A DNA stretch of 64,000 bases from a virus: IMG/VR virus record IMGVR_UViG_3300032284_001716, positions 1 to 64,000 of that record; one strand, 5' to 3'. The notes beneath the pieces were generated by a model. The model was not told the origin of the DNA, did no database searches, and saw only the letters and a list, made by a program, of their open reading frames with translations. Positions within the stretch are counted from its first letter, which is position 1. Each line of letters begins with the position of its first letter. Shown here piece by piece: positions 4,373-54,057 of the stretch. A program made the translations under genes and the position numbers.

Positions 4373-4534
4373 ATGGCAGAGGTCGACCTAGTAAAGGTTG
4401 AGCTCGAGTGGTATAAACAAATCCTCGAGCATATCAATAAAGTTCTATCTAATCCGCAAATGACCAATGATGAAAAGGTCAGTTCAGCCGCGTGGCTTGT
4501 CAAACAGTTGAAGAAGAGTGATCGTGATGACTGA
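4373..4534 (+). CDS. Hypothetical protein, 53 aa (not in ORF track)
   Basis: GGAG SD; MAEVDLVKVELEWYKQILEH…; stop overlaps clpP start. Confidence 0.65.
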   Translation: MAEVDLVKVELEWYKQILEHINKVLSNPQMTNDEKVSSAAWLVKQLKKSDRDD

Positions 4535-5087
4535 TAAGAGTGATAAGAAGACTGAGATTCCGAGCATCGATGAACATCACTACTATATGTTTACTAAGGA
4601 GTTTGATGCTGACTCATCGTCTGATGCTATAGAGTTTATCCTAGAACGAAATCTTATGAAGATCAAGCCGAAGATGATGAAGATGATCATTAACTCGCCG
4701 GGTGGTGAGATTGCGGCTGCCTTCGCGCTCATCGATACAATGAAAGGGTCACGCGTGCCCATCTATACGTACGGGCTTGGTGAGATCGCCTCCTGCGGTC
4801 TTATGACGTTTATCGCCGGTGAAAAGGGTCATCGCTACATCACCCGTAATACTGCCATCCTCTCACATCAGTATAGCTGGGGATCCTTTGGTAAGGATCA
4901 TGAGCTCATGGCTCGTGTGAAGGAATTTAACAACACACATGCACGAATCCTCGAGCACTATAAGAAGTGCACAGGACTTTCCGAGAAAGATGTTAAGAAG
5001 TTCCTTCTTCCTCCTGAGGACGTGTGGCTGACGGCTAAAGAAGCTGTTAAGTATGGTATCGCTGACGAAGTGGTGGATTTTTACTGA
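4527..5087 (+). CDS. clpP: ClpP-family protease proteolytic subunit
   Basis: INSPGG, IASCG (Ser), SHQ (His), EDVWLTAKEAVKYGIAD (Asp). Confidence 0.95.
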   Translation: MTDKSDKKTEIPSIDEHHYYMFTKEFDADSSSDAIEFILERNLMKIKPKMMKMIINSPGGEIAAAFALIDTMKGSRVPIYTYGLGEIASCGLMTFIAGEKGHRYITRNTAILSHQYSWGSFGKDHELMARVKEFNNTHARILEHYKKCTGLSEKDVKKFLLPPEDVWLTAKEAVKYGIADEVVDFY

Positions 5088-24349: not shown

Positions 24350-24610
24350 ATGTTCATTGAAATCGACGAAGAGCTTATCGACCGTATCATCAAGCAGCGC
24401 CTCGAGGAGGACTGGGTCCATGCTAACAAGGAAATCATGATCCTTGAGAGTGAGGATCGCCGCGGTGAACTCAAGCCTTATCAGCGTGAGGATCTTGAGA
24501 TGTACCGTAGGTTGATTCCTGCAATGCGCGTCATGGCAACATGGCACTTCACAAAGTTTGAGCAGGAAGAAATCTTTGGTGTACAAGACGATGACGATGT
24601 GATAGAATAA
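24350..24610 (+). CDS. Hypothetical protein
   Basis: AAGGGA SD, 86 aa. Confidence 0.65.
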   Translation: MFIEIDEELIDRIIKQRLEEDWVHANKEIMILESEDRRGELKPYQREDLEMYRRLIPAMRVMATWHFTKFEQEEIFGVQDDDDVIE

Positions 24611-24616
24611 ATACAG

Positions 24617-24908
24617 TTGCAAAGGTTGTTGATGCGTAAGGAATAGACGTTCTGGACCCGGGGGCGGTACCCGGCGCCTCCACCATAGATACATCGACAC
24701 GGACTACATGGGTAAACCTTATGAATGTAAGTAAGTCCCAACCGAAACACAGCGGTGTATCTTTGATGGGGGCGAAATAGGATCGACAGGATGCAGTAAA
24801 GGTACGAGTAGACCAATGCAAACGTTAGATGCAAACGATAATGCACCTCTAGTTATGGCACTTGCTGCCTAACATGCGTCCGGGGGAACGTGGAAACAGA
24901 ATCCCCCA
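24617..24908 (+). ncRNA. ssrA: Circularly permuted (two-piece) tmRNA, alphaproteobacterial type; tag (A)ANDNAPLVMALAA
   Basis: Acceptor piece ends CCGGG-GGCGGTA-CCCGG-CGCCTCC-A-CCA (24685); 82-nt intervening segment; coding piece starts GGGGGCG (24768) giving G3-U70; tag frame 24831-24872; 3' hairpin. Outer ends approximate. Confidence 0.93.
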
Positions 24909-24917
24909 TCTATCTAC

Positions 24918-24994
24918 GGTCACTTAGCTCAGCTGGATAGAGCATCAGACTTCTAATCTGAGGGTCGATGGTTCGAGTCCATCAGTGATCGCCA
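24918..24994 (+). tRNA. tRNA-Arg(UCU)
   Basis: Acceptor GGTCACT/AGTGATC + G-CCA; TCAGA-CTTCTAA-TCTGA; GATGG-TTCGAGT-CCATC. Confidence 0.95.
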
Positions 24995-25033
24995 GCATAT
25001 ATAGTGTGTCCGAAACTGACTGAAGGAGTCAAC

Positions 25034-26395
25034 ATGATTAAGCAACTGGCCGCAATCGGAATGGCCTTAACAACCTCTACAGTAGCTCTTGCTACCGATC
25101 TTCCGTCAAAGCGAGCTGCTCCTGCATCCTATGTTAAGATTTGTGATGCGTATGGTGCAGGTTTCTTTGCTATTCCTGGAACCGACACGTGTGTCCATAT
25201 TGGTGGTATGGTTCGTTATGATACGTTCTATGTTCCATCTCAGGACGTCTATAAGATTACATCCGGCGCTAAGGCAATTGCAACCGCTAAGGATGTAGAG
25301 AATACTCTTGGTAATGAGGTTCGTGGCCGTATCGATCTTGATGCGCGCACCGCAACCGACTATGGCACTCTCCAGACTGTCGTGAGCTCACGTCTTGGTC
25401 GTACGAGTGGTGCTCTTGCTGATCTTGGTGCACCTACTGGTGCTACTCAGTCTGCAACAACGACTACCCCTATTATGGAAGCTGCCTACATGCGTTGGGC
25501 TGGTTTCACTGCGGGTATCGCACGTGATAACTTCCAGTATATGCCTGTTGTTACCTACACAGGTAACCAGCACTGGGCATCATTCTCAAACGGTGCAAAG
25601 CAGCTTGCTTACACTGCTGTGATCGGTGGCACTGGATTGTCAGCGACTGTAGCTATTCAGGATCCTACTGATACCGCAATCGCTCCTGTTGGTATCACAT
25701 CTCTTGCCACTGTTTACTCAGTCAATCGTACTCCACAGGTTAACGGTCGCATTGACTATGATCAGTCGTGGGGTGGTGTAGCTGTGATGGGTGCAACCCG
25801 TCAGGCAAATGGTATCGATCCAACTGGTGCAGTCTATGACAAGACTGCAAACGTTTGGGCGGCTGGCGCTGGTGCAAAGATCAATCTGCCATTCCTCGGT
25901 AATGGTGATGCGATCTATTTTACGGCTAACTATGCTAACGGTATGACTGAATATACCGACTCGTATGGTTCTAATAAGGCGTCTGCAAACGTCAAGCGTG
26001 ATGTTGGTGGATATGCTTTGAACCAGCCTAGTGTTGTGTATGGAGCAAACGGTCTTGAGCTTGTTAAGTCATGGAACGTAGGCAGCGCGCTTACCCATAA
26101 CTGGAATGATAAGTGGAAGTCGAACGTGTTTGGTTCCTACGGCACTATCACTGCGCCTGCTACCTCTGCTGCACTCGTGTGGGATGGTAAGGTTGGATTC
26201 GGTGATGCCAAGATGTGGAGTGCAGGTACTAACCTGACTTTCAGCCCTGTCAAGGACTTTGATATTGGTGTTGAGGGTATCTACTCTAACATGAAGCAGG
26301 ATGTTCGTTATACACTGGCTAGCTCGACTAATATCGTCACTAGCGAGTCACAGAATAACTGGACAGCGCGCGCTCGAGTTGAACGCCGCTTCTAA
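25034..26395 (+). CDS. Alphaproteobacterial outer-membrane porin (Omp2/RopA, Porin_2 family)
   Basis: Signal peptide, DLPS…YVKICDAYGAGFFAIPGTDTC…GG.VR, LDART.TDYGTL, C-terminal Phe (ERRF). Confidence 0.92.
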   Translation: MIKQLAAIGMALTTSTVALATDLPSKRAAPASYVKICDAYGAGFFAIPGTDTCVHIGGMVRYDTFYVPSQDVYKITSGAKAIATAKDVENTLGNEVRGRIDLDARTATDYGTLQTVVSSRLGRTSGALADLGAPTGATQSATTTTPIMEAAYMRWAGFTAGIARDNFQYMPVVTYTGNQHWASFSNGAKQLAYTAVIGGTGLSATVAIQDPTDTAIAPVGITSLATVYSVNRTPQVNGRIDYDQSWGGVAVMGATRQANGIDPTGAVYDKTANVWAAGAGAKINLPFLGNGDAIYFTANYANGMTEYTDSYGSNKASANVKRDVGGYALNQPSVVYGANGLELVKSWNVGSALTHNWNDKWKSNVFGSYGTITAPATSAALVWDGKVGFGDAKMWSAGTNLTFSPVKDFDIGVEGIYSNMKQDVRYTLASSTNIVTSESQNNWTARARVERRF

Positions 26396-27519
26396 TGATC
26401 TCTCTTACGCCTGACAAGTTCGGGTACTATCAAGTAGGCGATCGCTCTACCTATAGTAAACTCGAGGCTATCGAATGGGCAAGAGCAACAACTGCAAAGA
26501 CGGAGTGGAACTTTAACCGCTCCGTCTTTGACGCTTTGGAATGGACAAAGGAACCAGAGACCGACCTCTGGACGATGTACAAACTAAGAGCGAGGCAGAT
26601 ACGTGAAAGCTACGATTATATTGTACTATGGTATAGCGGCGGCTCTGATAGTCACAATATTCTCCATGCTTGGCTAGATGCTGGTCTTAAGATAGACGAG
26701 ATAGCTACCACGTGGAACTATCAAGCCACAGGCGATATGCAGAACCACTACAACGCTGAGATTACCAACGTTGTACTACCAGACATTAAAGCTTTAAAGG
26801 ATGCTGGTCATGAGTTCGAATTTAGGCTCGTAGACATTTCTCAGTTCTGCATCGACCTGTTCTCTGTATGGGGATCAGAGTATGAGTACAATGTCAACTT
26901 TCACCTGAGCCCAAACAATCCTGCAAAGCATCTCTTCCGTCATAAGATCGAAGACTATAAGAATATGATTGCAGCAGGTAAGAAGGTTTGCTTCGTATGG
27001 GGAAAAGAGAAACCCATACTTCAACATGATGGCAGACACTATATTCAATTCACAGATAACATCGACAATACAGTCGGTCCATACGTACAGCGAAAGTATT
27101 ATCAAGGATGGTATGATGAATTATTCTACTGGACTCCTGACTTCCCATTACTGGCTGTAAAGCAAGCTCATGTGTTGAAGAATTATGTTGAGTCGTGTAA
27201 TGATTCCTCACAGTTCGAATCATACAACCCAAAGAAATTTCAAATAGGTGGATACTCAAAAACGTTTGATGGGTATCTAAAGGATCAGTTTGTAAAGACT
27301 GCTATATATCCAAGATGGTCAAATGACATCTTCTGCAACGGCAAAGCCGGATCATTCGTGTACTCATTGAGAGATGATTGGTTTCTACACGGGAATGTGG
27401 ATGTTCGCGGTAAATATATGCAGATGGTTGATTCCATCTTTATTAATATTGAGCATGATGCAAGTGAAGGGCGACGAAACATCATGCCGCATTATAGCCC
27501 TCGGTACTATTTAGAATGA
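26395..27519 (+). CDS. PP-loop (adenine nucleotide alpha-hydrolase) protein
   Basis: LWYSGGSDS motif. Confidence 0.7.
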   Translation: MISLTPDKFGYYQVGDRSTYSKLEAIEWARATTAKTEWNFNRSVFDALEWTKEPETDLWTMYKLRARQIRESYDYIVLWYSGGSDSHNILHAWLDAGLKIDEIATTWNYQATGDMQNHYNAEITNVVLPDIKALKDAGHEFEFRLVDISQFCIDLFSVWGSEYEYNVNFHLSPNNPAKHLFRHKIEDYKNMIAAGKKVCFVWGKEKPILQHDGRHYIQFTDNIDNTVGPYVQRKYYQGWYDELFYWTPDFPLLAVKQAHVLKNYVESCNDSSQFESYNPKKFQIGGYSKTFDGYLKDQFVKTAIYPRWSNDIFCNGKAGSFVYSLRDDWFLHGNVDVRGKYMQMVDSIFINIEHDASEGRRNIMPHYSPRYYLE

Positions 27520-27743
27520 TTACCTTCTACGAAACTCAGATGCGTACCATCGCCAAGATCATCACATGGCGCGTGCTACTTACTATCGTCAACTTCACAT
27601 ACACATATGTTGTCACTGGAGATTGGAAAGCAGGATTGGCTGTTGCCGGACTTGCTGCTATCTTTAACTCGTTCATCTACTGGAGTCACGAACGAGTATG
27701 GAACAGTGTCCTTTGGGGTAAGAAAGAAAAAGATGTTCAATAA
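27516..27743 (+). CDS. DUF2061 membrane protein
   Basis: RTIAKIITWR…YWSHERVWN..WG. Confidence 0.85.
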   Translation: MITFYETQMRTIAKIITWRVLLTIVNFTYTYVVTGDWKAGLAVAGLAAIFNSFIYWSHERVWNSVLWGKKEKDVQ

Positions 27744-29094
27744 GAAATCCTTCTGCACTATGCCATGGTCGTCGATCATGATCTTGCCTACTGGTGATTT
27801 CAAGATATGCTGCTTTACCGGCCATAGGCATAATAACATCGAGACGCACGGTGTTGCGGTAGATGATGATGGCAACTCTATGAACGTGTTGACCCACGAC
27901 ATTATGGAAGCTATGAATAGCAAATGGCATAAGGAGTTGCGTCTTGCCCAATCAAAGGGTGAGCGTCATGAGATTTGCCGTGTGTGCTGGGATCGTGATG
28001 ATGCTGCAGAGCGTCAGGGTGAAATCTCTACCTCACTCCGTGTAGTTCGTTCATACTATCAAAACCTTGAAGGCAAAGAGGATCGCCCGGGTGGATTCCC
28101 TATGAAGGGATCTATGACGTGGGATCAGGCTGATAAGTGGATGGATGAAGATGGGTCTATCAAGACCATGCCTCTATCGCTTGACATGCGCTTCAGCAAT
28201 CTTTGCAACTCTAAGTGCATCATGTGCGAACCTCTCTACAGCAATCTGTGGTATGAGGAGCAGCTGACAATTCATAAGAAGGACTACTTCGATGTCGGTC
28301 CTAAGCAATATAAGATCAACAAGAAGATCGGTGGCTCACGCGCTACATACTCTGCTGATATGCCTGATTGGAATGATGATCCACGCTGGTGGGCACAGTT
28401 TGATAAGATGGCACCACACCTTCGCCACATCTACATCACCGGTGGTGAACCGTTTGTCCAGCCTGTTCATGATGTGTTCATTCAGAAGCTTGTTGATCGT
28501 GGGTTTGCGAAAGACATTGTCATTGAGTATGACACCAACCTGACCGTGTTGAATCCGAAGATCCTTACTATGCTAAAGGAGTTCAAGGATATTATCATTC
28601 GCGTGTCGCTCGACGGTGTTGGTGAGCAGTACAACCTTATCAGATTCCCCGCAAAGTTCGATCGTGTCGTAGCTAACATGGAGCTACTCGAGCAGTATGG
28701 TCTGAAAGACAAGATCGTCAACATCACCTGCTGCATTGGTATCTATTCTATCTTCTCACCGATCGAGCATGATAAGTTCTTCAGACCACGCGGATACACT
28801 CAGTTCCAGAATCGTCTGCTAAGGTCACCACCTCAGGTCGACATTATCAATCTTCCCCGTAAGATTAAGGAACAGGTAATCAAGATCTACGAAGATAGCG
28901 GACTAGAAGGCATGGATTCTAAGCATGTGGTTGGCTATCTAAAGAATAATCTAGATGCTCTTACCGATGAGCAGTGTCGTCCTAAGATGCTGCAGTTCTT
29001 ATCATACATGAACGCACTAGATCGTTCTAGAGGAACTAACTGGGCAGCTACGTTCCCAGAAATCTATAAGCTAATTGCTGAGTTCTACAACTAG
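27733..29094 (+). CDS. Radical SAM protein with N-terminal twitch/SPASM-like domain
   Basis: CTMPW…CC…CRVC; CNSKCIMC (CxxxCxxC); ITGGEP; YDTN; SLDG. Confidence 0.9.
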   Translation: MFNKKSFCTMPWSSIMILPTGDFKICCFTGHRHNNIETHGVAVDDDGNSMNVLTHDIMEAMNSKWHKELRLAQSKGERHEICRVCWDRDDAAERQGEISTSLRVVRSYYQNLEGKEDRPGGFPMKGSMTWDQADKWMDEDGSIKTMPLSLDMRFSNLCNSKCIMCEPLYSNLWYEEQLTIHKKDYFDVGPKQYKINKKIGGSRATYSADMPDWNDDPRWWAQFDKMAPHLRHIYITGGEPFVQPVHDVFIQKLVDRGFAKDIVIEYDTNLTVLNPKILTMLKEFKDIIIRVSLDGVGEQYNLIRFPAKFDRVVANMELLEQYGLKDKIVNITCCIGIYSIFSPIEHDKFFRPRGYTQFQNRLLRSPPQVDIINLPRKIKEQVIKIYEDSGLEGMDSKHVVGYLKNNLDALTDEQCRPKMLQFLSYMNALDRSRGTNWAATFPEIYKLIAEFYN

Positions 29095-47291: not shown

Positions 47292-49124
47292 ATGGCAGCC
47301 AATACATCACTATCACTGACATCACTAGATTTTGATACCTTAAAGACTAACTTTAAAGGCTTTCTGACATCTCAGCCTCAGTTCAAAGATTTCAACTTCG
47401 AAGGCTCAAACATGAACGTCCTCCTGGACGTCATGTCATATAACACCTATCTGAACTCTTTCTACCTGAATATGGTATCATCCGAGATGTTCATGGACAC
47501 AGCACAGAAATATGATTCTGTCGTGTCTCATGCTAAAGAGTTGAACTACCTTCCAAAGTCCGCCAAGTCTTCACTGGCTACTGTTTATTTTGATGCATCA
47601 ACAATTGGTATCTCGCCTCCTTTCTCTATTCCTAAAGGGGTGACGTTTAGTGGTACCAATTCAAATGGTGTATTTACATTCTCAACTAATCAGCTTCATA
47701 ACTATCAGTCGGCAAACTCTACCTACACTGTAACAGGCTTAAACCTGTACGAGGGTGTGTATACAACTGACGTTTTTGTGGTTGACTATACAGTAGAGTC
47801 TCAAAAATTCCTTCTTACTAACGAGAATATTGACATTGATAGTTTAACTGTTACTGTTAGTGAGTCTGGTAACGATACTGTTTTTGCACGTGTTCAAACA
47901 CTGTTTGGATTAAGTGAAGTATCAAACGTCTACTTCCTTCAGGGTGCACAAAACGGTCTTTACGAGGTTGTATTTGGCGACGGTCTGTTTGGCCGTAAGC
48001 CAGACAACTTAGCAATCATATCTGTTGAATATCGCGTATGCAGTGGTCCTGCGGCCGATGGCATCGACTCATTCCTATGTACGATGGATCTTGGCCAAAT
48101 TAATGGTGGTACTGCATCAATCTCAACACCAGTTGCATCTGCTATCTCTGCGGGTGGTGCAGACCCTGAATCGATTGAGTCTATTAGATTCTCTGCTCCT
48201 CGCTACTTTGCTACACAGCAAAGAGCTCTAGCATCTGACGACTACTCATCTCTTGTTCTGGATAACTATGGCGGACAGATTGATGCTGTTAGTGTGTATG
48301 GTGGTGAGACTCTTGAGCCTAAACAATATGGTCGTGTGGTTGTTTCTCTAAAGCCTATGGGTGGTACAGTTACACCTGATTATCTGAAGAATGAGATTTC
48401 ATCATTCCTTAAGGCATATACATCTCTACCTACACGTATTATCATTGCTGATCCAGAGTATTTTTATCTAGGTGTCGATACAACTGTACAGTATGAGAAG
48501 GTCGCAACCACAAAGCTAGTAACCGAACTTCAATCATTGATTGTTAACTCTATCTCAACATGGGGACAGAATAATCTTGGGCAGTTTGGTACTGACTTTA
48601 GATATAGTAAGTTTGTTGCTGCTATTGATGCGGTAGATACATCCATCACAAGTAATAATACAGACATCTATATGATTAAGCGTTTGTCACCACTTCTTGG
48701 ATATGCTTCCGGATTCTCAATCTCATTTAATAACTCTGCAGATATTGAGCAGACATCACCGGGTTATACAAAGAATAAGCCGTTTCATGATGAGCCTGTC
48801 CTCACATCGACAAAGTTTACCTATATGGATGCTGATGATAATATATGGGAAAATTGCTTTTTCAGGGATAATAATCTAGGCACTATTGTCATCTATTCTG
48901 TTATTAATGGTGAATTCACTATCATTAATCCATTAATTGGCACTATCAATTATGTCACAGGCCGTGTTGACATTCAGAAATTTATCACTACATATTATGA
49001 CCAATACATAGCAATTAAATATAAGACTCTGAATAAGGATGTTATCATCGGGCAGAATGCTATTGCTCTGATCGACATCAACAGCTATGATGTGAATGTT
49101 TCCGTTATAGAGACATTAAAGTAA
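47292..49124 (+). CDS. gp6: Baseplate wedge gp6
   Basis: LDFDTLK…FKDFNFEGS…SVVSHAKELNY.P…FGDG…ESIESIRF.AP. Confidence 0.95.
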   Translation: MAANTSLSLTSLDFDTLKTNFKGFLTSQPQFKDFNFEGSNMNVLLDVMSYNTYLNSFYLNMVSSEMFMDTAQKYDSVVSHAKELNYLPKSAKSSLATVYFDASTIGISPPFSIPKGVTFSGTNSNGVFTFSTNQLHNYQSANSTYTVTGLNLYEGVYTTDVFVVDYTVESQKFLLTNENIDIDSLTVTVSESGNDTVFARVQTLFGLSEVSNVYFLQGAQNGLYEVVFGDGLFGRKPDNLAIISVEYRVCSGPAADGIDSFLCTMDLGQINGGTASISTPVASAISAGGADPESIESIRFSAPRYFATQQRALASDDYSSLVLDNYGGQIDAVSVYGGETLEPKQYGRVVVSLKPMGGTVTPDYLKNEISSFLKAYTSLPTRIIIADPEYFYLGVDTTVQYEKVATTKLVTELQSLIVNSISTWGQNNLGQFGTDFRYSKFVAAIDAVDTSITSNNTDIYMIKRLSPLLGYASGFSISFNNSADIEQTSPGYTKNKPFHDEPVLTSTKFTYMDADDNIWENCFFRDNNLGTIVIYSVINGEFTIINPLIGTINYVTGRVDIQKFITTYYDQYIAIKYKTLNKDVIIGQNAIALIDINSYDVNVSVIETLK

Positions 49125-51382
49125 TGGAATTTTCAGTAGAGAAAAAGATCTCTAGCTTTGTTGAATCCCAGTTCCCTCAATTCTATCTGGATGAGGGTCC
49201 AAACTTTGTAGCATTCGTCAAAGCCTATTACGAGTGGATGGAGTCAGAGGGTGGCGCAATATATGGTGCTAGAAATATCTTTGATTTCAGAGATATTGAC
49301 AACACCCCTGATACTATGCCGTGGAATGATTCTAGCCTTAATGGATTCCTAGAACATTTCCAGCGTAAGTATCTCTACAGTATTCCATTCAACGTTATCG
49401 TCAATAAGCGATTCCTTCTTAAGCACATTCTTGATGTATATCGTTCTAAAGGTACGATCAGCTGCTATAAGCTTCTATTCCGCCTCATCTATAATGAGGA
49501 TGTTGATGTTTATCTTCCCGGCGTTAATGTACTACGTTTATCGGATGGTAAGTGGAATCAACCATTATACCTCGAGGTATCTGATAGTACTATTAGTCCA
49601 AGTTTTGTTGGCAAACGTATTATTGGTCTAGGCTCACGCACTACAGCTACTGTGGAAAACTATAGTAGAGAGCCTATTAATGAGAATCTAATTTGTACAT
49701 TATCATTGACTTCTATCCTACCAAAAGGTGGCACATTCACTAATGGTGAGAAAGTAATTGTCGTTGAAGATGCAACTAATGGAACACGTGTAGATTTAGC
49801 ACCTGTTATCATCGGCTCTCTTGATTCACTTGACATTATTAACGGCGGCCAAGACTATCAGGTTGGCGATGTCGTTAAGATTGCCCATCGTGATATTGTC
49901 ACCGGTGCTTTAACATCATATGGTGTTGATGGAACACTTCGCGTTGCTGAGACTGCAACATCACAGGGCTCTATCCACTATAATATTAAGAGCGGTGGTT
50001 TTGGTATCTCGATTGCCCAGGGCGCTCATATCTTTCAGTATAAGGGTAATGCTGATGGCGCCGGCGCCACATTCCAGATTGGTGCATTATCATATACCAT
50101 TCCAGTAGTCTATAACACTGATATTATCAGTGACTTTTTAGATGTTCAACTTGATGCAACATCATACGGGTTTGCTGCAAATGCAGCCGCAAATGCTAGT
50201 AGTGTTATTGGCCCATCAGATATTGAGTCCACACTATCATATGATATGAAAGTATTCGGATCTCTTGCAGCGCTGACTAACCAATATGGTGGCAATGGAT
50301 ACTCATCAAATCTGAATATCTTTATCCGCAATACGATGGAAGCTGGCCAGTATTTAAGTGGTAATATCAGCTATAATACCACATCAAATACTATTACCGG
50401 TACTAACACTACATTCCAAAGATACTTCTCAGCAAATGACGTCATATGGCTTCAGGCTAATACAGCTAATAATCTAACAAAAGAATACGCTGTTATTAAG
50501 TCAGTCGATAGTAACACAAGTATCACACTTTATGGTGCACCATCTATTAACTCGACAGCATCTGCAAAGCATAAAGTATCAACGGTTATTCTACCATCGC
50601 AGTTTGCCACGTATGAACCCATTGTAGCAACTAAAGATGGTTCTATTGCCGGCCTTAACTCAATCGTTGAAGGCGTACCTGCTGTAGGCTCTGGTGTTAT
50701 CTCTCGCCTTGATGCTGTTAACTCTGGTAAAGGTTATGTTGATACGGAGTATGTATCCGCATACCTATATGCCGGCTTAAGCTCAATTACTATCTACAAT
50801 GGTGGTATATTATACGCTAACGGTGAAGTTATTGTTTTTGCCGGCGATACTGAAGGAACTAGGGCCACCGGTTATGTCACAACAAATGCCAATGGTACAA
50901 TTCTTGCAGCTACTCTAACAAATGCTGGTTCAGGCTATAAAGGTGCACCTAGACTAATCGTACGTACACAGTACGGCACCGGCGCTGTGCTTGCAACCAC
51001 AGTTAATGAGTTTAATCCACTCAGTAAAATCACAGGGCGTGTTAAAAAGACTGGACTAGGTAAGACTGCAGGTTTCTGGAATACAGACGATGGCTTCTTG
51101 GATTCGAATAAATATATCCAGGATAGCTTCTTCTATCAAGACTTCTCATACCAACTCAAGACTGCTGCAACACTTGATAAGTATAAGAACATCTTGTATC
51201 AGACATTTCATACATCTGGTGCAGAACTGTTCGGTGAATATTCTAAGACGATTATTGATGGTGTACAAGCATCTATCTTGCAGGAAACTACGACGCCGTT
51301 ATATGTATTGCCAGAGTATATTACTATTGACGATACAACAAGATCAATTGATACAACACACTATACGGCAGACCAACTCTAA
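49124..51382 (+). CDS. gp7: Baseplate wedge initiator gp7
   Basis: QFPQF…FVKAYYEW…YRSKGT…LFR; C-terminal IQDSFFYQDFSY…H.SG. Confidence 0.85.
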   Translation: MEFSVEKKISSFVESQFPQFYLDEGPNFVAFVKAYYEWMESEGGAIYGARNIFDFRDIDNTPDTMPWNDSSLNGFLEHFQRKYLYSIPFNVIVNKRFLLKHILDVYRSKGTISCYKLLFRLIYNEDVDVYLPGVNVLRLSDGKWNQPLYLEVSDSTISPSFVGKRIIGLGSRTTATVENYSREPINENLICTLSLTSILPKGGTFTNGEKVIVVEDATNGTRVDLAPVIIGSLDSLDIINGGQDYQVGDVVKIAHRDIVTGALTSYGVDGTLRVAETATSQGSIHYNIKSGGFGISIAQGAHIFQYKGNADGAGATFQIGALSYTIPVVYNTDIISDFLDVQLDATSYGFAANAAANASSVIGPSDIESTLSYDMKVFGSLAALTNQYGGNGYSSNLNIFIRNTMEAGQYLSGNISYNTTSNTITGTNTTFQRYFSANDVIWLQANTANNLTKEYAVIKSVDSNTSITLYGAPSINSTASAKHKVSTVILPSQFATYEPIVATKDGSIAGLNSIVEGVPAVGSGVISRLDAVNSGKGYVDTEYVSAYLYAGLSSITIYNGGILYANGEVIVFAGDTEGTRATGYVTTNANGTILAATLTNAGSGYKGAPRLIVRTQYGTGAVLATTVNEFNPLSKITGRVKKTGLGKTAGFWNTDDGFLDSNKYIQDSFFYQDFSYQLKTAATLDKYKNILYQTFHTSGAELFGEYSKTIIDGVQASILQETTTPLYVLPEYITIDDTTRSIDTTHYTADQL

Positions 51383-52509: not shown

Positions 52510-54057
52510 ATGGGAAAGCTGCTACCTGGTTTCAGAAAATCACTTGTTGATGAGATTCAAATTGGTATTCAAGCCAATACATCTCACTACTATGCTTTCG
52601 CTGCAAACCCCGTTCCATTCACCGGCACAATACCTACTACAAAGGGTGATGATTATGACTCTGTTTTTGGTAGTGATTGGAAGATGGTATTTGGCAAAAA
52701 GCTAAATGCTAATAATATCTTTGCTATGATTAAGAGATATGATTGGACATCTAATACGGTGTATCAATTCTATGATGATAAAAAGGATCTAAGTAACTCA
52801 CAGTTTTATGTGATTACAACACCTACTTCATCAGTCGGTTATTATAACATCTACAAGTGTATCGACAATGCTAATGGTGCACCTTCCACATCACAGCCCG
52901 ATCTAGTTCAGCCACAAAGCTTTCAGAAGTCTGACGGATATATCTGGAGATATATCAGCTCGATCGATTACGTAACATATGCCAGATATACTACAACAAT
53001 GTTCGTCCCAATTACATCAAATGCCACAATTGTAGCTAGTGCTTCTAATTATACTGGTGTTGAGAAGATTGTTGTTACCAATGCTGGTTCTGGTTATGAA
53101 ACGTGGCATAATGGTGCCATCAACGGTGTGCTTGATAGCTTTACCATTCAGATTGCAAATAATGCAGCTACAGTTGATAACTACTATACAAATAATAGCA
53201 TCTACATCTATGATGTTAACGGTGGAACGGCACAGCTTAGAAACATTGTTGCTTATAATTCAACAATTGGTCAGGGTAACTTTATTACAGTTGATGCTGC
53301 AGTTAACACCACTCTTATTACTGCCGGCTCTACACAGTATAAAATTTCTCCACAAGTATACTTTGAAACTGATGCATCTTCGAAGCCTAAGGCATATAGC
53401 ACAATAACACCGGGTAACAATACAATTGGTGCTATTACTATTGTTGATACAGGTTCAGGTCTAAGTTGGGCCAATGCACGAATCATCAGTAACTCTTCAT
53501 ATGGTACTGGCGCAACACTTCGTCCTATTGCTCCGCCCGCGGGTGGCCATGGCCGCGCACCTTCAGCTGAACTTCAATCCGCTGGTATTGGTTACTCATT
53601 TACATTCTCAAATACTGAGCTTAATACTATTTCTACTGACTTAACATACAATCAGATTGGTATCATCAGAAATCCAACATCACTTCTTCAAGATGGATCT
53701 GGTGATAGCAACGGTGTGTTCTGGTTAGCTAACACATTCAATCAAATTTTGAAGGCAAACATTAATCCAACTGGTGTTCTTTATACAGTTGGTGAGACTG
53801 TAAAAGGTAGGACTTCAAATGCCACTGGCATTGTTGTCTTCTCTAATAGTTCAGTTCTTTATCTTGCTGGCGATAAATATTTCTCAAATTTAGAGATGGT
53901 TACATCTAGTGATGGAATTAGATCCACAGCAATCACTATAAATACGTATGGGGACATCTATGCTACCGACGTATATCCGCTGTACGTCCAGAACATTGAT
54001 AACGTAACGCGCTCCAATACCCAGTCTGAGACTTTCAAGCTGATCATACAGGTTTAA
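52510..54057 (+). CDS. gp8: Baseplate wedge gp8
   Basis: RYDWTSNTVY..YDD…FYV…YKCIDN…DGYIWRY…GGHG…R…Q.E.FKLII. Confidence 0.88.
   Translation: MGKLLPGFRKSLVDEIQIGIQANTSHYYAFAANPVPFTGTIPTTKGDDYDSVFGSDWKMVFGKKLNANNIFAMIKRYDWTSNTVYQFYDDKKDLSNSQFYVITTPTSSVGYYNIYKCIDNANGAPSTSQPDLVQPQSFQKSDGYIWRYISSIDYVTYARYTTTMFVPITSNATIVASASNYTGVEKIVVTNAGSGYETWHNGAINGVLDSFTIQIANNAATVDNYYTNNSIYIYDVNGGTAQLRNIVAYNSTIGQGNFITVDAAVNTTLITAGSTQYKISPQVYFETDASSKPKAYSTITPGNNTIGAITIVDTGSGLSWANARIISNSSYGTGATLRPIAPPAGGHGRAPSAELQSAGIGYSFTFSNTELNTISTDLTYNQIGIIRNPTSLLQDGSGDSNGVFWLANTFNQILKANINPTGVLYTVGETVKGRTSNATGIVVFSNSSVLYLAGDKYFSNLEMVTSSDGIRSTAITINTYGDIYATDVYPLYVQNIDNVTRSNTQSETFKLIIQV

What the first reader, a model, noticed from the sequence alone, without database searches (positions are those of the whole stretch)
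24617..24908. Phage-encoded, compact circularly permuted tmRNA
Seen: acceptor piece (T loop GGCGGTA, CCA at 24683-85) precedes the coding piece (GGGGGCG at 24768; G3-U70), separated by an 82-nt segment with its own stem (AGATACATCG/CGGTGTATCT); CAGGATG pairs with CGTTCTG; tag ANDNAPLVMALAA begins only 63 nt into a coding piece of about 140 nt; AATAAATA late-promoter-like box at 24606. Known: permutation, GGCRGUA loop and ANDN…AA tags are alphaproteobacterial hallmarks; the well-known phage tmRNAs are one-piece. Inference: streamlined rescue RNA expressed late, perhaps backing up a host tmRNA cut by defences.
Basis: partly seen in the sequence, partly recalled or inferred. Interest (0 to 1): 0.85.

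Follow-up and report, generated by a model that had tools for sequence, protein, structure and literature searches.

The report
Compact two-piece tmRNA in phage
This uncultured T4-like phage of an alphaproteobacterium carries a real, back-to-front (two-piece) gene for tmRNA, the RNA that frees stalled ribosomes; phage copies of this kind are already known and common, but this one belongs to a slimmed-down class, found here only in phages, that lacks the first pseudoknot.

Summary
The contig is a T4-like phage: baseplate and tape-measure genes lie downstream, phage-family genes upstream.

The kind is not new. Two-piece phage tmRNAs are published (Buchholz 2022, PMC9004378). Cultured roseophages and Rhodobacter phages carry them. 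This scan has noted them in over a thousand genomes, including a near-twin of this locus on other DNA.

What is worth keeping is the anatomy. The resume codon lies 63 nt into the coding piece, against about 85 nt in bacteria, so there is no room for pseudoknot PK1. A covarying helix between the 5' end of the acceptor piece and the stretch before the resume codon takes its place. One pseudoknot after the tag is kept. This compact spacing occurs in at least 119 viral contigs and in 0 of 401 sampled Alphaproteobacteria; the standard spacing occurs in 138 of 401.

A T4 late-promoter box sits at a fixed position upstream in 105 of 118 compact copies, which supports late expression. The idea that it backs up a host tmRNA cut by defences is untested. 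No experiment shows expression or tagging.

The parts
24606..24613 (+). AATAAATA box: one-mismatch variant of the T4 late promoter TATAAATA, ending 3 nt before the 5'-tail helix
   Evidence: A NATAAATA box lies 60-80 nt before the CCA in 105 of 118 compact viral tmRNAs: TATAAATA 91, AATAAATA 11, GATAAATA 3. Host-like copies lack it. Other NATAAATA boxes in the window sit 13-50 nt upstream of ORFs, including baseplate genes.
24580..24608 (+). Sigma-70-like TGTACA-17-(TG)TAGAAT overlapping the late box; a possible early or host-polymerase promoter
   Evidence: Consensus scan. The region has no more such hits than shuffles give (3 found, 2.9 expected), so this is weak.
24617..24685 (+). Acceptor piece: 5' tail (helix strands 24617-21, 24624-27, 24635-38, 24648-54), T-arm 24658-24674 with loop GGCGGTA, acceptor 3' strand 24675-24681, discriminator A24682, encoded CCA 24683-85. 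The true 5' end is unknown, probably about 24618-24619.
   Evidence: Rfam alignments, sequence, co-folds and duplex tests.
24686..24767 (+). Intervening segment removed during maturation: conserved closing stem 24687-96 / 24753-62 around a lineage-variable insert, then UUGAU leader before G1
   Evidence: The closing stem TAGATACA..TGTATCTTTGAT is shared by relatives whose inserts are unrelated, 28-388 nt, median 88. A close DNA relative in run X2 differs exactly between 24687 and 24764. Fold z = -2.27.
24768..24917 (+). Coding piece: acceptor 5' strand 24768-74 (G3:U70), D-loop-like AAAUAGGAUCGA, helix-2 3' strands (24787-93, 24803-06, 24811-14, 24817-21), no PK1, frame-setting UAGAU 24826-30, tag ORF, helix-5-like hairpin 24852-73, 3' pseudoknot
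   Evidence: The UAGAU|GCA spacing matches E. coli U85-A86 (PMC2481249).
24831..24872 (+). Tag reading frame ANDNAPLVMALAA plus UAA stop
   Evidence: ARAGORN. The same tag occurs in 5 viral loci. 117 of 120 compact loci give an in-frame tag ending in AA.
24876..24907 (+). 3' H-type pseudoknot: GCGU 24876-79 pairs with ACGU 24888-91; GGGGGA 24882-87 pairs with UCCCCC 24902-07; conserved loop GGAAACAGAA 24892-24901
   Evidence: Five covarying tetramer pairs at a fixed position across host-like and phage copies. 85% of sequences pair, against 25% with the upstream stretch shuffled.
24918..24994 (+). tRNA-Arg(UCU), 10 nt after the pseudoknot; RNase P cleavage at its 5' end would set the 3' end of the coding piece
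   Evidence: ARAGORN and Rfam. The same tRNA follows 7-12 nt after the pseudoknot in 16 of 113 compact loci. An RNA-library contig with 0 differences spans 24852-25002.

Best explanation
This is a working-looking two-piece (circularly permuted, alpha-type) tmRNA gene of an uncultured T4-like phage that infects an alphaproteobacterium.

Shown:
- The gene order is acceptor piece, spacer, coding piece.
- The tRNA-like domain carries the alanine identity pair G3:U70 and an encoded CCA.
- A 13-codon tag ends in the ClpXP-type ALAA, behind the frame-setting UAGAU.
- One pseudoknot follows the tag.
- There is no room for PK1. A helix made in trans between the 5' end of the acceptor piece and the nucleotides just before the resume region takes its place.

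Inferred:
- The gene is transcribed from the late-type box at 24606. The transcript start falls at or next to the first nucleotide of that helix, and transcription runs on into tRNA-Arg and the porin operon, since no terminator follows.
- Host RNase P cuts at G24768 and at the tRNA-Arg 5' end, and the stem-closed spacer is discarded.
- The two pieces stay base-paired, are charged by host AlaRS and work with host SmpB and EF-Tu, because no smpB is on the contig.
- Late in infection the RNA frees ribosomes stalled on broken messages and tags the peptides for ClpXP.
For: Identity: ARAGORN tmRNA* with this tag. RF01849 111.6 bits and RF04321 106.6 bits.

Phage context: PHROG and Pfam hits on both sides, on an IMG/VR virus record.

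Selection on function: 117 of 120 compact viral copies keep an in-frame ANDN...AA tag. UA(G/A)AU lies before the resume codon in 97 of 120, at the spacing that sets the frame in E. coli (PMC2481249).

No PK1: only 17 nt separate GACC (24811-14) from the resume codon. Rfam shows a gap over the PK1 sequence.

Replacement helix: 11 of 12 independent co-folds give it. Cognate duplexes average -9.9 against -5.6 kcal/mol, 0 of 20,000 permutations. In an independent set of 39 pairs the figures are -9.8 against -7.3, 0 of 5,000.

Phage-specific: compact spacing in 0 of 401 Alphaproteobacteria against standard spacing in 138 of 401, and in at least 119 viral contigs.

Late box.

Precedent: a stable hairpin can replace PK1 in E. 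coli (Tanner 2006, as cited in PMC3968760).
Against: There is no direct evidence of transcription, processing, charging or tagging. The only RNA hint is one low-depth contig from an RNA library, which could be DNA carry-over.

The window's box is AATAAATA, not the consensus. Exact TATAAATA is only weakly enriched in the window (6 found, 2.7 expected). A sigma-70-like promoter overlaps the box.

A T4-type start 5-6 nt after the box would trim 1-2 nt from the replacement helix.

The window's own minimum-energy co-fold pairs its palindromic UGCA differently.

Related sequences inflate the permutation tests.

smpB could lie on the roughly 40% of the genome that is not assembled.

The 401 genomes are a sample, and the pattern is strict.
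Confidence: 0.75

Rival explanations
1. Defence back-up. The phage tmRNA exists to replace host tmRNA that an anti-phage nuclease or the phage's own host shut-off has destroyed.
For: Late-type promoter. The phage also supplies tRNAs, which fits a general 'bring your own translation parts' strategy.
Against: No defence or tmRNA-cleaving nuclease is linked to the locus, and nothing here tests the idea. It is a refinement of the purpose, not of the mechanism.
Confidence: 0.1
2. Decoy. The RNA mainly soaks up host SmpB or blocks host trans-translation, as proposed for the tRNA-like-domain-only tmRNA of mycobacteriophage DS6A.
For: Phage precedent in PMC4131195 and PMC11915505. No smpB on the contig. 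The structure is strongly reduced.
Against: The tag frame, its AA ending, the frame-setting UA and helix 5 are conserved across 91 distinct compact sequences. A pure decoy would not need them.
Confidence: 0.07
3. Proteolysis steering. The phage tag directs rescued peptides to a phage-controlled protease, to recycle amino acids or to degrade particular proteins.
For: A ClpP-family gene lies at 4518-5087 (PF00574, 106.5 bits). The tag ends in ALAA. Buchholz 2022 suggests amino-acid recycling.
Against: The ClpP homologue is 20 kb away and also matches phage head-maturation protease families. No ClpX or SspB is on the contig. The tag hardly differs from host-type tags.
Confidence: 0.06
4. Host DNA. 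The tmRNA is bacterial sequence at a prophage boundary, or a mis-assembled or mis-binned fragment, since ssrA is a common integration site.
For: Some of the viral contigs found with the T-arm motif carry host-like tmRNAs with no late box and typical bacterial tags (L119, L022).
Against: Phage genes lie on both sides for tens of kilobases. The late box and the compact form were not found in 401 bacterial genomes. The Rfam score is 112 bits against 295 for a bacterial copy.
Confidence: 0.02

Closest known systems
Two-piece (circularly permuted) tmRNA of Alphaproteobacteria (Rfam RF01849 alpha_tmRNA; Caulobacter, Keiler et al. 2000)
   Same: Gene order, T-loop GGCRGUA, G3:U70, encoded CCA, long helix 2 made between the two pieces, ANDN...LAA tag, frame-setting UA four nucleotides before the resume codon, and the 3' pseudoknot with loop GGMAACAGAA.
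   Different: The conserved PK1 sequence is absent, and a further helix made by a 5-nt longer 5' tail stands in its place. About 45 nt between the stop codon and the 3' pseudoknot are missing. The spacer is 82 nt against about 23-30 nt. The upstream signal is a late-phage box, not a GC hairpin. The Rfam score is 112 bits against 295.
Published phage two-piece tmRNAs: OM43 phage Melnitz and pelagimyophages (Buchholz et al. 2022, PMC9004378); roseophages DSS3_MAL1, DSS3P8 and MD18; Rhodobacter phages RcXuper and RcSimone-Hastad; Erythrobacter phage vB_EliS-L02
   Same: Phage-borne, permuted, alpha-type, with long stem-closed spacers of 97-109 nt in the four fetched, and next to tRNA genes.
   Different: The four cultured-phage copies examined keep PK1-length spacing (resume codon about +85) and have no TATAAATA box. 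Melnitz was reported behind an early promoter and with a glutamine riboswitch, which Rfam does not find here. I could not examine the Melnitz sequence itself.
E. coli tmRNA mutants in which PK1 is replaced by a stable hairpin (Tanner et al. 2006, as cited in PMC3968760)
   Same: A simple helix occupies the place of PK1 between helix 2 and the resume region, and the frame-setting sequence is kept.
   Different: Those are engineered one-piece molecules shown to tag. Here the form is natural, the helix is intermolecular, and nothing is shown experimentally.
One-piece phage tmRNAs (mycobacteriophage Bxz1 group, Bacillus phage G) and the DS6A tRNA-like-domain-only form (PMC4131195)
   Same: Phage-encoded ssrA homologues that depend on host partners.
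   Different: Those are not permuted and belong to other lineages. DS6A has no tag frame.

Membership tests
tmRNA (ssrA), permuted form (Rfam RF04321) | Covariance-model match above the curated gathering score | tested here: met
   106.6 bits against gathering 47, full model 1-213. ARAGORN also calls a permuted tmRNA.
tmRNA (ssrA), permuted form (Rfam RF04321) | The acceptor 3' half with CCA lies upstream of the 5' half, and the two can form a 7-bp acceptor stem with G3:U70 | tested here: met
   CGCCUCC-A-CCA at 24675-85 and GGGGGCG at 24768-74; G3 pairs with U24679.
tmRNA (ssrA), permuted form (Rfam RF04321) | Tag reading frame that starts with an alanine codon, ends in hydrophobic ..AA and a stop, and has U-A at -5/-4 | tested here: met
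   UAGAU|GCA ... GCC UAA, encoding ANDNAPLVMALAA. Spacing rule from PMC2481249.
tmRNA (ssrA), permuted form (Rfam RF04321) | Processed into two base-paired RNAs, charged with alanine, and tags proteins together with SmpB | not testable with these tools
   Only one 151-nt RNA-library contig covers 24852-25002. No smpB on the contig.
Alphaproteobacterial tmRNA (Rfam RF01849) | Covariance-model match above gathering; T-loop GGCRGUA; helix 2 formed between the 5' tail and the coding piece | tested here: met
   111.6 bits against gathering 50. Helices supported by co-folds and covariation.
Alphaproteobacterial tmRNA (Rfam RF01849) | PK1 element between helix 2 and the resume codon (conserved CYCGGYAUGRUACCRCCGUUAUCGGGYC; resume codon about 85 nt from G1) | tested here: not met
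   Rfam alignment gap over this element. Only 17 nt are available. The compact spacing occurs in 0 of 401 class genomes, against 138 of 401 for the standard spacing with the element visible.
Alphaproteobacterial tmRNA (Rfam RF01849) | 3' pseudoknot with loop GGMAACAGAA | tested here: met
   GCGU/ACGU and GGGGGA/UCCCCC; five covarying variants across the family.
T4-type late transcription unit | TATAAATA box a few nucleotides upstream of the transcript start | tested here: inconclusive
   The window has AATAAATA. Relatives have TATAAATA at the same place in 91 of 118, and similar boxes precede baseplate genes. There is no transcript mapping, and gp55/gp33 were not searched.

The most novel reading that the evidence does not exclude
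The compact form is a phage-only structural class of tmRNA that has naturally dispensed with PK1, the one pseudoknot thought to matter for tagging. It replaces PK1 with an intermolecular helix whose first nucleotide is the start of a late-promoter transcript. The class is present in at least 119 viral contigs and has not been described as such in the papers I could search. If it tags normally, it is a natural minimal tmRNA, and it shows that PK1 acts only as a structural spacer.
Probability: 0.4. Interest if true: 0.55.

Novelty: new variant of a known kind. Interest (0 to 1): 0.38.

Why it matters
Phage tmRNAs are common but barely studied, and nobody has shown what they do for the phage.

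This locus gives a well-defined natural minimal tmRNA: about 67 + 145 nt, one pseudoknot, no PK1. That speaks to an old question in trans-translation, namely whether PK1 does anything beyond holding the region between helix 2 and the resume codon in shape.

The fixed late-promoter box places the need for ribosome rescue in the late phase of infection. This differs from the early-promoter proposal made for phage Melnitz.

The stem-closed, freely exchangeable spacer and the tandem with tRNA-Arg show how a stable-RNA precursor is built into a phage operon.

For annotation, the compact class scores low on standard models, and tmRNA genes go unannotated even in deposited phage genomes.

Tried and rejected
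- **RNAalifold** on the MAFFT alignment A1 mis-assigned helix 2, because MAFFT shifted the short strands by one column. I therefore did not use the count of structure pairs on A1 and used alignment-free co-folds and duplex tests.
- **Near-relative search.** A first blastn of 24500-25000 listed only tRNA-Arg matches.
- **Sequencing runs.** The two metatranscriptome runs (X19, X20) mostly gave contigs of other organisms' tmRNAs and tRNAs over the conserved T-arm. They show no ends, and apart from one exact 151-nt contig they show no expression of this gene.
- **Pf16 paper.** It turned out to have SspB but no tmRNA.
- **Other pathway genes.** SspB, ClpX and SmpB searches of the contig were negative, on a record only about 58% complete.
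- **Spacer coding.** The spacer holds only an 8-codon ATG frame, so it is not a gene slot here.
- **Host from the porin.** The search gave a single bacterial relative, a Hyphomicrobiales MAG at 48% identity, which is too thin to name a host.
- **Unpublished genome.** The tally of 138 of 401 includes one unpublished genome (G041).

Full report
**1. Observation**

- An acceptor piece ends in CGCCUCC-A-CCA (24675-24685), behind a T-arm with loop GGCGGUA (24658-24674).
- An 82-nt segment follows (24686-24767), closed by a 10-bp stem (24687-96 / 24753-62).
- The coding piece starts at GGGGGCG (24768-74). It completes a 7-bp acceptor stem with the alanine identity pair G3:U70.
- CGUUCUG (24648-54) pairs with CAGGAUG (24787-93).
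- The tag frame GCA...GCC UAA (24831-24872) encodes ANDNAPLVMALAA.

ARAGORN calls a permuted tmRNA with exactly this tag. Rfam gives alpha_tmRNA 111.6 bits (E 1.3e-29) and tmRNA_permuted 106.6 bits (E 8.5e-20), both over the whole model. tRNA-Arg(UCU) starts at 24918.

**2. Context**

The window is the first 64 kb of a 99.5 kb IMG/VR virus record that CheckV rates about 58% complete.
- Downstream lie T4-type baseplate wedge proteins (47292-49124, phrog_219, E 1.5e-148; also 49124-51382 and 52510-54057), a tube cap, a tail protein and a tape measure.
- Upstream and just downstream lie phage families and a helicase loader.
- The tmRNA is therefore inside a phage genome, not at a prophage edge.
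- The next gene is a Porin_2 protein (PF02530, 156.7 bits). Its only bacterial relative found is in a Hyphomicrobiales MAG, at 48% identity.
- Together with the alpha-type tmRNA this points to an alphaproteobacterial host. It does not say which one.
- No smpB, sspB or clpX is on the contig. A ClpP-family gene lies at 4518-5087.

**3. Is a phage two-piece tmRNA new?**

No.
- Buchholz et al. 2022 (PMC9004378) describe one in OM43 phage Melnitz. They count 53 two-piece forms among 133 unique phage tmRNA structures, mostly from aquatic phages.
- The 2025 tmRNA database lists 79 phage sequences (PMC11915505).
- Deposited roseophages, Rhodobacter phages and an Erythrobacter phage carry related permuted genes, mostly unannotated.
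- Earlier notes of this scan report the same kind in over a thousand genomes, including a near-twin of this locus elsewhere. Those notes are unchecked leads.

**4. The compact anatomy**

*Spacing.* In the viral copies, the distance from G1 of the coding piece to the resume codon is bimodal. It is 61-66 nt in a compact class, with the window at 63. It is 80-96 nt in the rest, including host-like copies. The four cultured-phage copies I fetched are of the long type.

*No PK1.* In the window only 17 nt separate the last helix-2 strand (GACC, 24811-14) from the resume codon. The Rfam alignment shows a gap over the conserved PK1 sequence.

*Replacement helix.* The compact class has a 5' tail about 5 nt longer than the standard class: the box-to-CCA distance is 71-74 nt against 66-67. 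That tail pairs with the stretch just before the resume region. In the window this is UUGCA 24617-21 with UGCAA 24817-21, stacked on GGUU 24624-27 with GACC 24811-14.
- Eleven of twelve independent two-strand folds give this layout. The window is the exception, because its UGCA is palindromic.
- The strands covary: UGCU/AGCA, UACUGA/UCAGUA, UACUAA/UUAGUA, UGUU/GACA.
- Cognate duplexes are stronger than swapped ones: -9.9 against -5.6 kcal/mol, 0 of 20,000 permutations.
- An independently collected set of 39 distinct pairs gives -9.8 against -7.3, 0 of 5,000.
- Relatedness inflates such tests. Even so, the divergent lineages each keep the pairing.

*After the tag.* A helix-5-like hairpin holds the stop codon (24852-73). 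The 3' 'hairpin' is an H-type pseudoknot: GCGU 24876-79 with ACGU 24888-91, and GGGGGA 24882-87 with UCCCCC 24902-07. The tetramer pair covaries in five variants, in host-like and phage copies alike. 85% of sequences pair, against 25% after shuffling. About 45 nt that bacteria have between the stop codon and this pseudoknot are missing.

*Summary.* The mature RNA would be about 67 + 145 nt with one pseudoknot.

**5. Phage-only?**

- A strict pattern for the compact spacing matched 0 of 401 genomes sampled across the class of the Hyphomicrobiales MAG. The same pattern with standard spacing matched 138 of 401, each showing the PK1 sequence.
- The compact pattern matched at least 119 IMG/VR contigs, some of 95-183 kb.
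- Of 120 compact loci, 118 are permuted. 117 give an in-frame tag ending in AA. UA(G/A)AU precedes the resume codon in 97.
- That motif places U and A where E. coli has the frame-setting U85-A86 (PMC2481249).
- No deposited phage matched the compact coding piece by blastn.
- The bacterial MAG's own tmRNA scores 295 bits on RF01849, against 112 for the window.
- These are samples. The correct wording is 'not found in those searched'.

**6. Expression signals**

- A NATAAATA box lies 60-80 nt before the CCA in 105 of 118 compact copies: TATAAATA 91, AATAAATA 11 (as in the window), GATAAATA 3. It is also present in most standard-spacing phage copies and absent from host-like ones.
- The helix begins 4-5 nt after the box in 31 of 39 distinct sequences. 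That is about where a T4-type late transcript would start (my knowledge of T4 late promoters, not tested here). The acceptor piece may therefore need no 5' trimming.
- In the window, similar boxes precede baseplate and other ORFs. Exact TATAAATA is only weakly enriched, at 6 found against 2.7 expected.
- A sigma-70-like promoter overlaps the box, at chance frequency.
- No terminator follows. tRNA-Arg, the porin and a radical-SAM operon lie downstream.
- tRNA-Arg(UCU) follows 7-12 nt after the pseudoknot in 16 of 113 compact loci (a 17th at 21 nt), and it is always that tRNA. RNase P could thus define the 3' end of the coding piece in this sub-lineage.
- One RNA-library contig with no differences spans 24852-25002. 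This is a weak hint of a joint precursor, and DNA carry-over is not excluded.

**7. The spacer**

- Its closing stem and the UUGAU leader are conserved. The inside differs completely between relatives, at 28-388 nt with a median of 88.
- A close relative in a DNA run differs exactly between 24687 and 24764.
- Here the spacer holds no gene; there is only an 8-codon frame.
- Earlier notes of this scan report genes in such spacers elsewhere. I did not test those.

**8. Mechanism and rivals**

*Best reading (0.75).* This is a functional tmRNA expressed late, matured by host RNase P and tRNA end-processing, and working with host SmpB, AlaRS and EF-Tu. It frees ribosomes and adds a ClpXP-type tag. 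PK1 is functionally replaced by the intermolecular helix, in line with the E. coli result that a stable hairpin can stand in for PK1 (Tanner 2006, cited in PMC3968760).

*Rivals.*
- The defence back-up idea (0.10) is untested.
- An SmpB decoy (0.07) is disfavoured by the conserved tag frame.
- Steering to a phage protease (0.06) is thin.
- Host DNA (0.02) is excluded by context.

**9. Verdict**

This is a real and ordinary kind of feature, a phage two-piece tmRNA. It belongs to a structurally reduced, apparently phage-specific variant that I did not find described in the papers searched. Nothing is shown experimentally. Interest is moderate.

Noticed in passing
window 25004-26395: Full-length Porin_2 (PF02530, 156.7 bits) gene directly after the tmRNA and tRNA-Arg. 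Its only bacterial relative found is in a Hyphomicrobiales MAG at 48% identity. It is a phage-borne outer-membrane porin and a host clue.
   Followed up: partly
window 4518-5087: ClpP-family protease gene (PF00574, 106.5 bits). It also matches phage head-maturation protease families. No ClpX or SspB is on the contig. Any link to the ALAA tag is open.
   Followed up: partly
L016, L031, L064 and about 20 other viral loci: A still shorter tmRNA sub-class: resume codon 57-59 nt from G1, late box 66-67 nt before the CCA, tag ANDNFAPEMRLAA in 17 loci. Its structure between helix 2 and the tag was not analysed.
   Followed up: no
L127-L130 (DSS3_MAL1, RcSimone-Hastad, RcXuper, vB_EliS-L02) and records: Most deposited alphaproteobacterial phage genomes with a permuted tmRNA do not annotate it. 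In RcRudolph a 'hypothetical protein' lies over the T-arm match.
   Followed up: partly
window 24686-24767; run X2 contigs: A close relative, about 96% identical upstream and 1 difference in 204 nt of the coding piece and the start of tRNA-Arg, has unrelated sequence exactly inside the spacer's closing stem. The spacer is a replacement hot spot.
   Followed up: partly
window 27607-29094 and 26395-27519: A radical SAM / SPASM protein (PF04055, PF13186) and an unassigned 374-aa gene follow the porin in the same orientation with no terminator. They probably share the tmRNA's transcription unit.
   Followed up: no
window 24918-24994 and 16 other compact loci: The tRNA that follows the compact tmRNA is always tRNA-Arg(UCU). 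In DSS3_MAL1 a tRNA-Arg lies just upstream instead. The reason for this pairing is unknown.
   Followed up: partly
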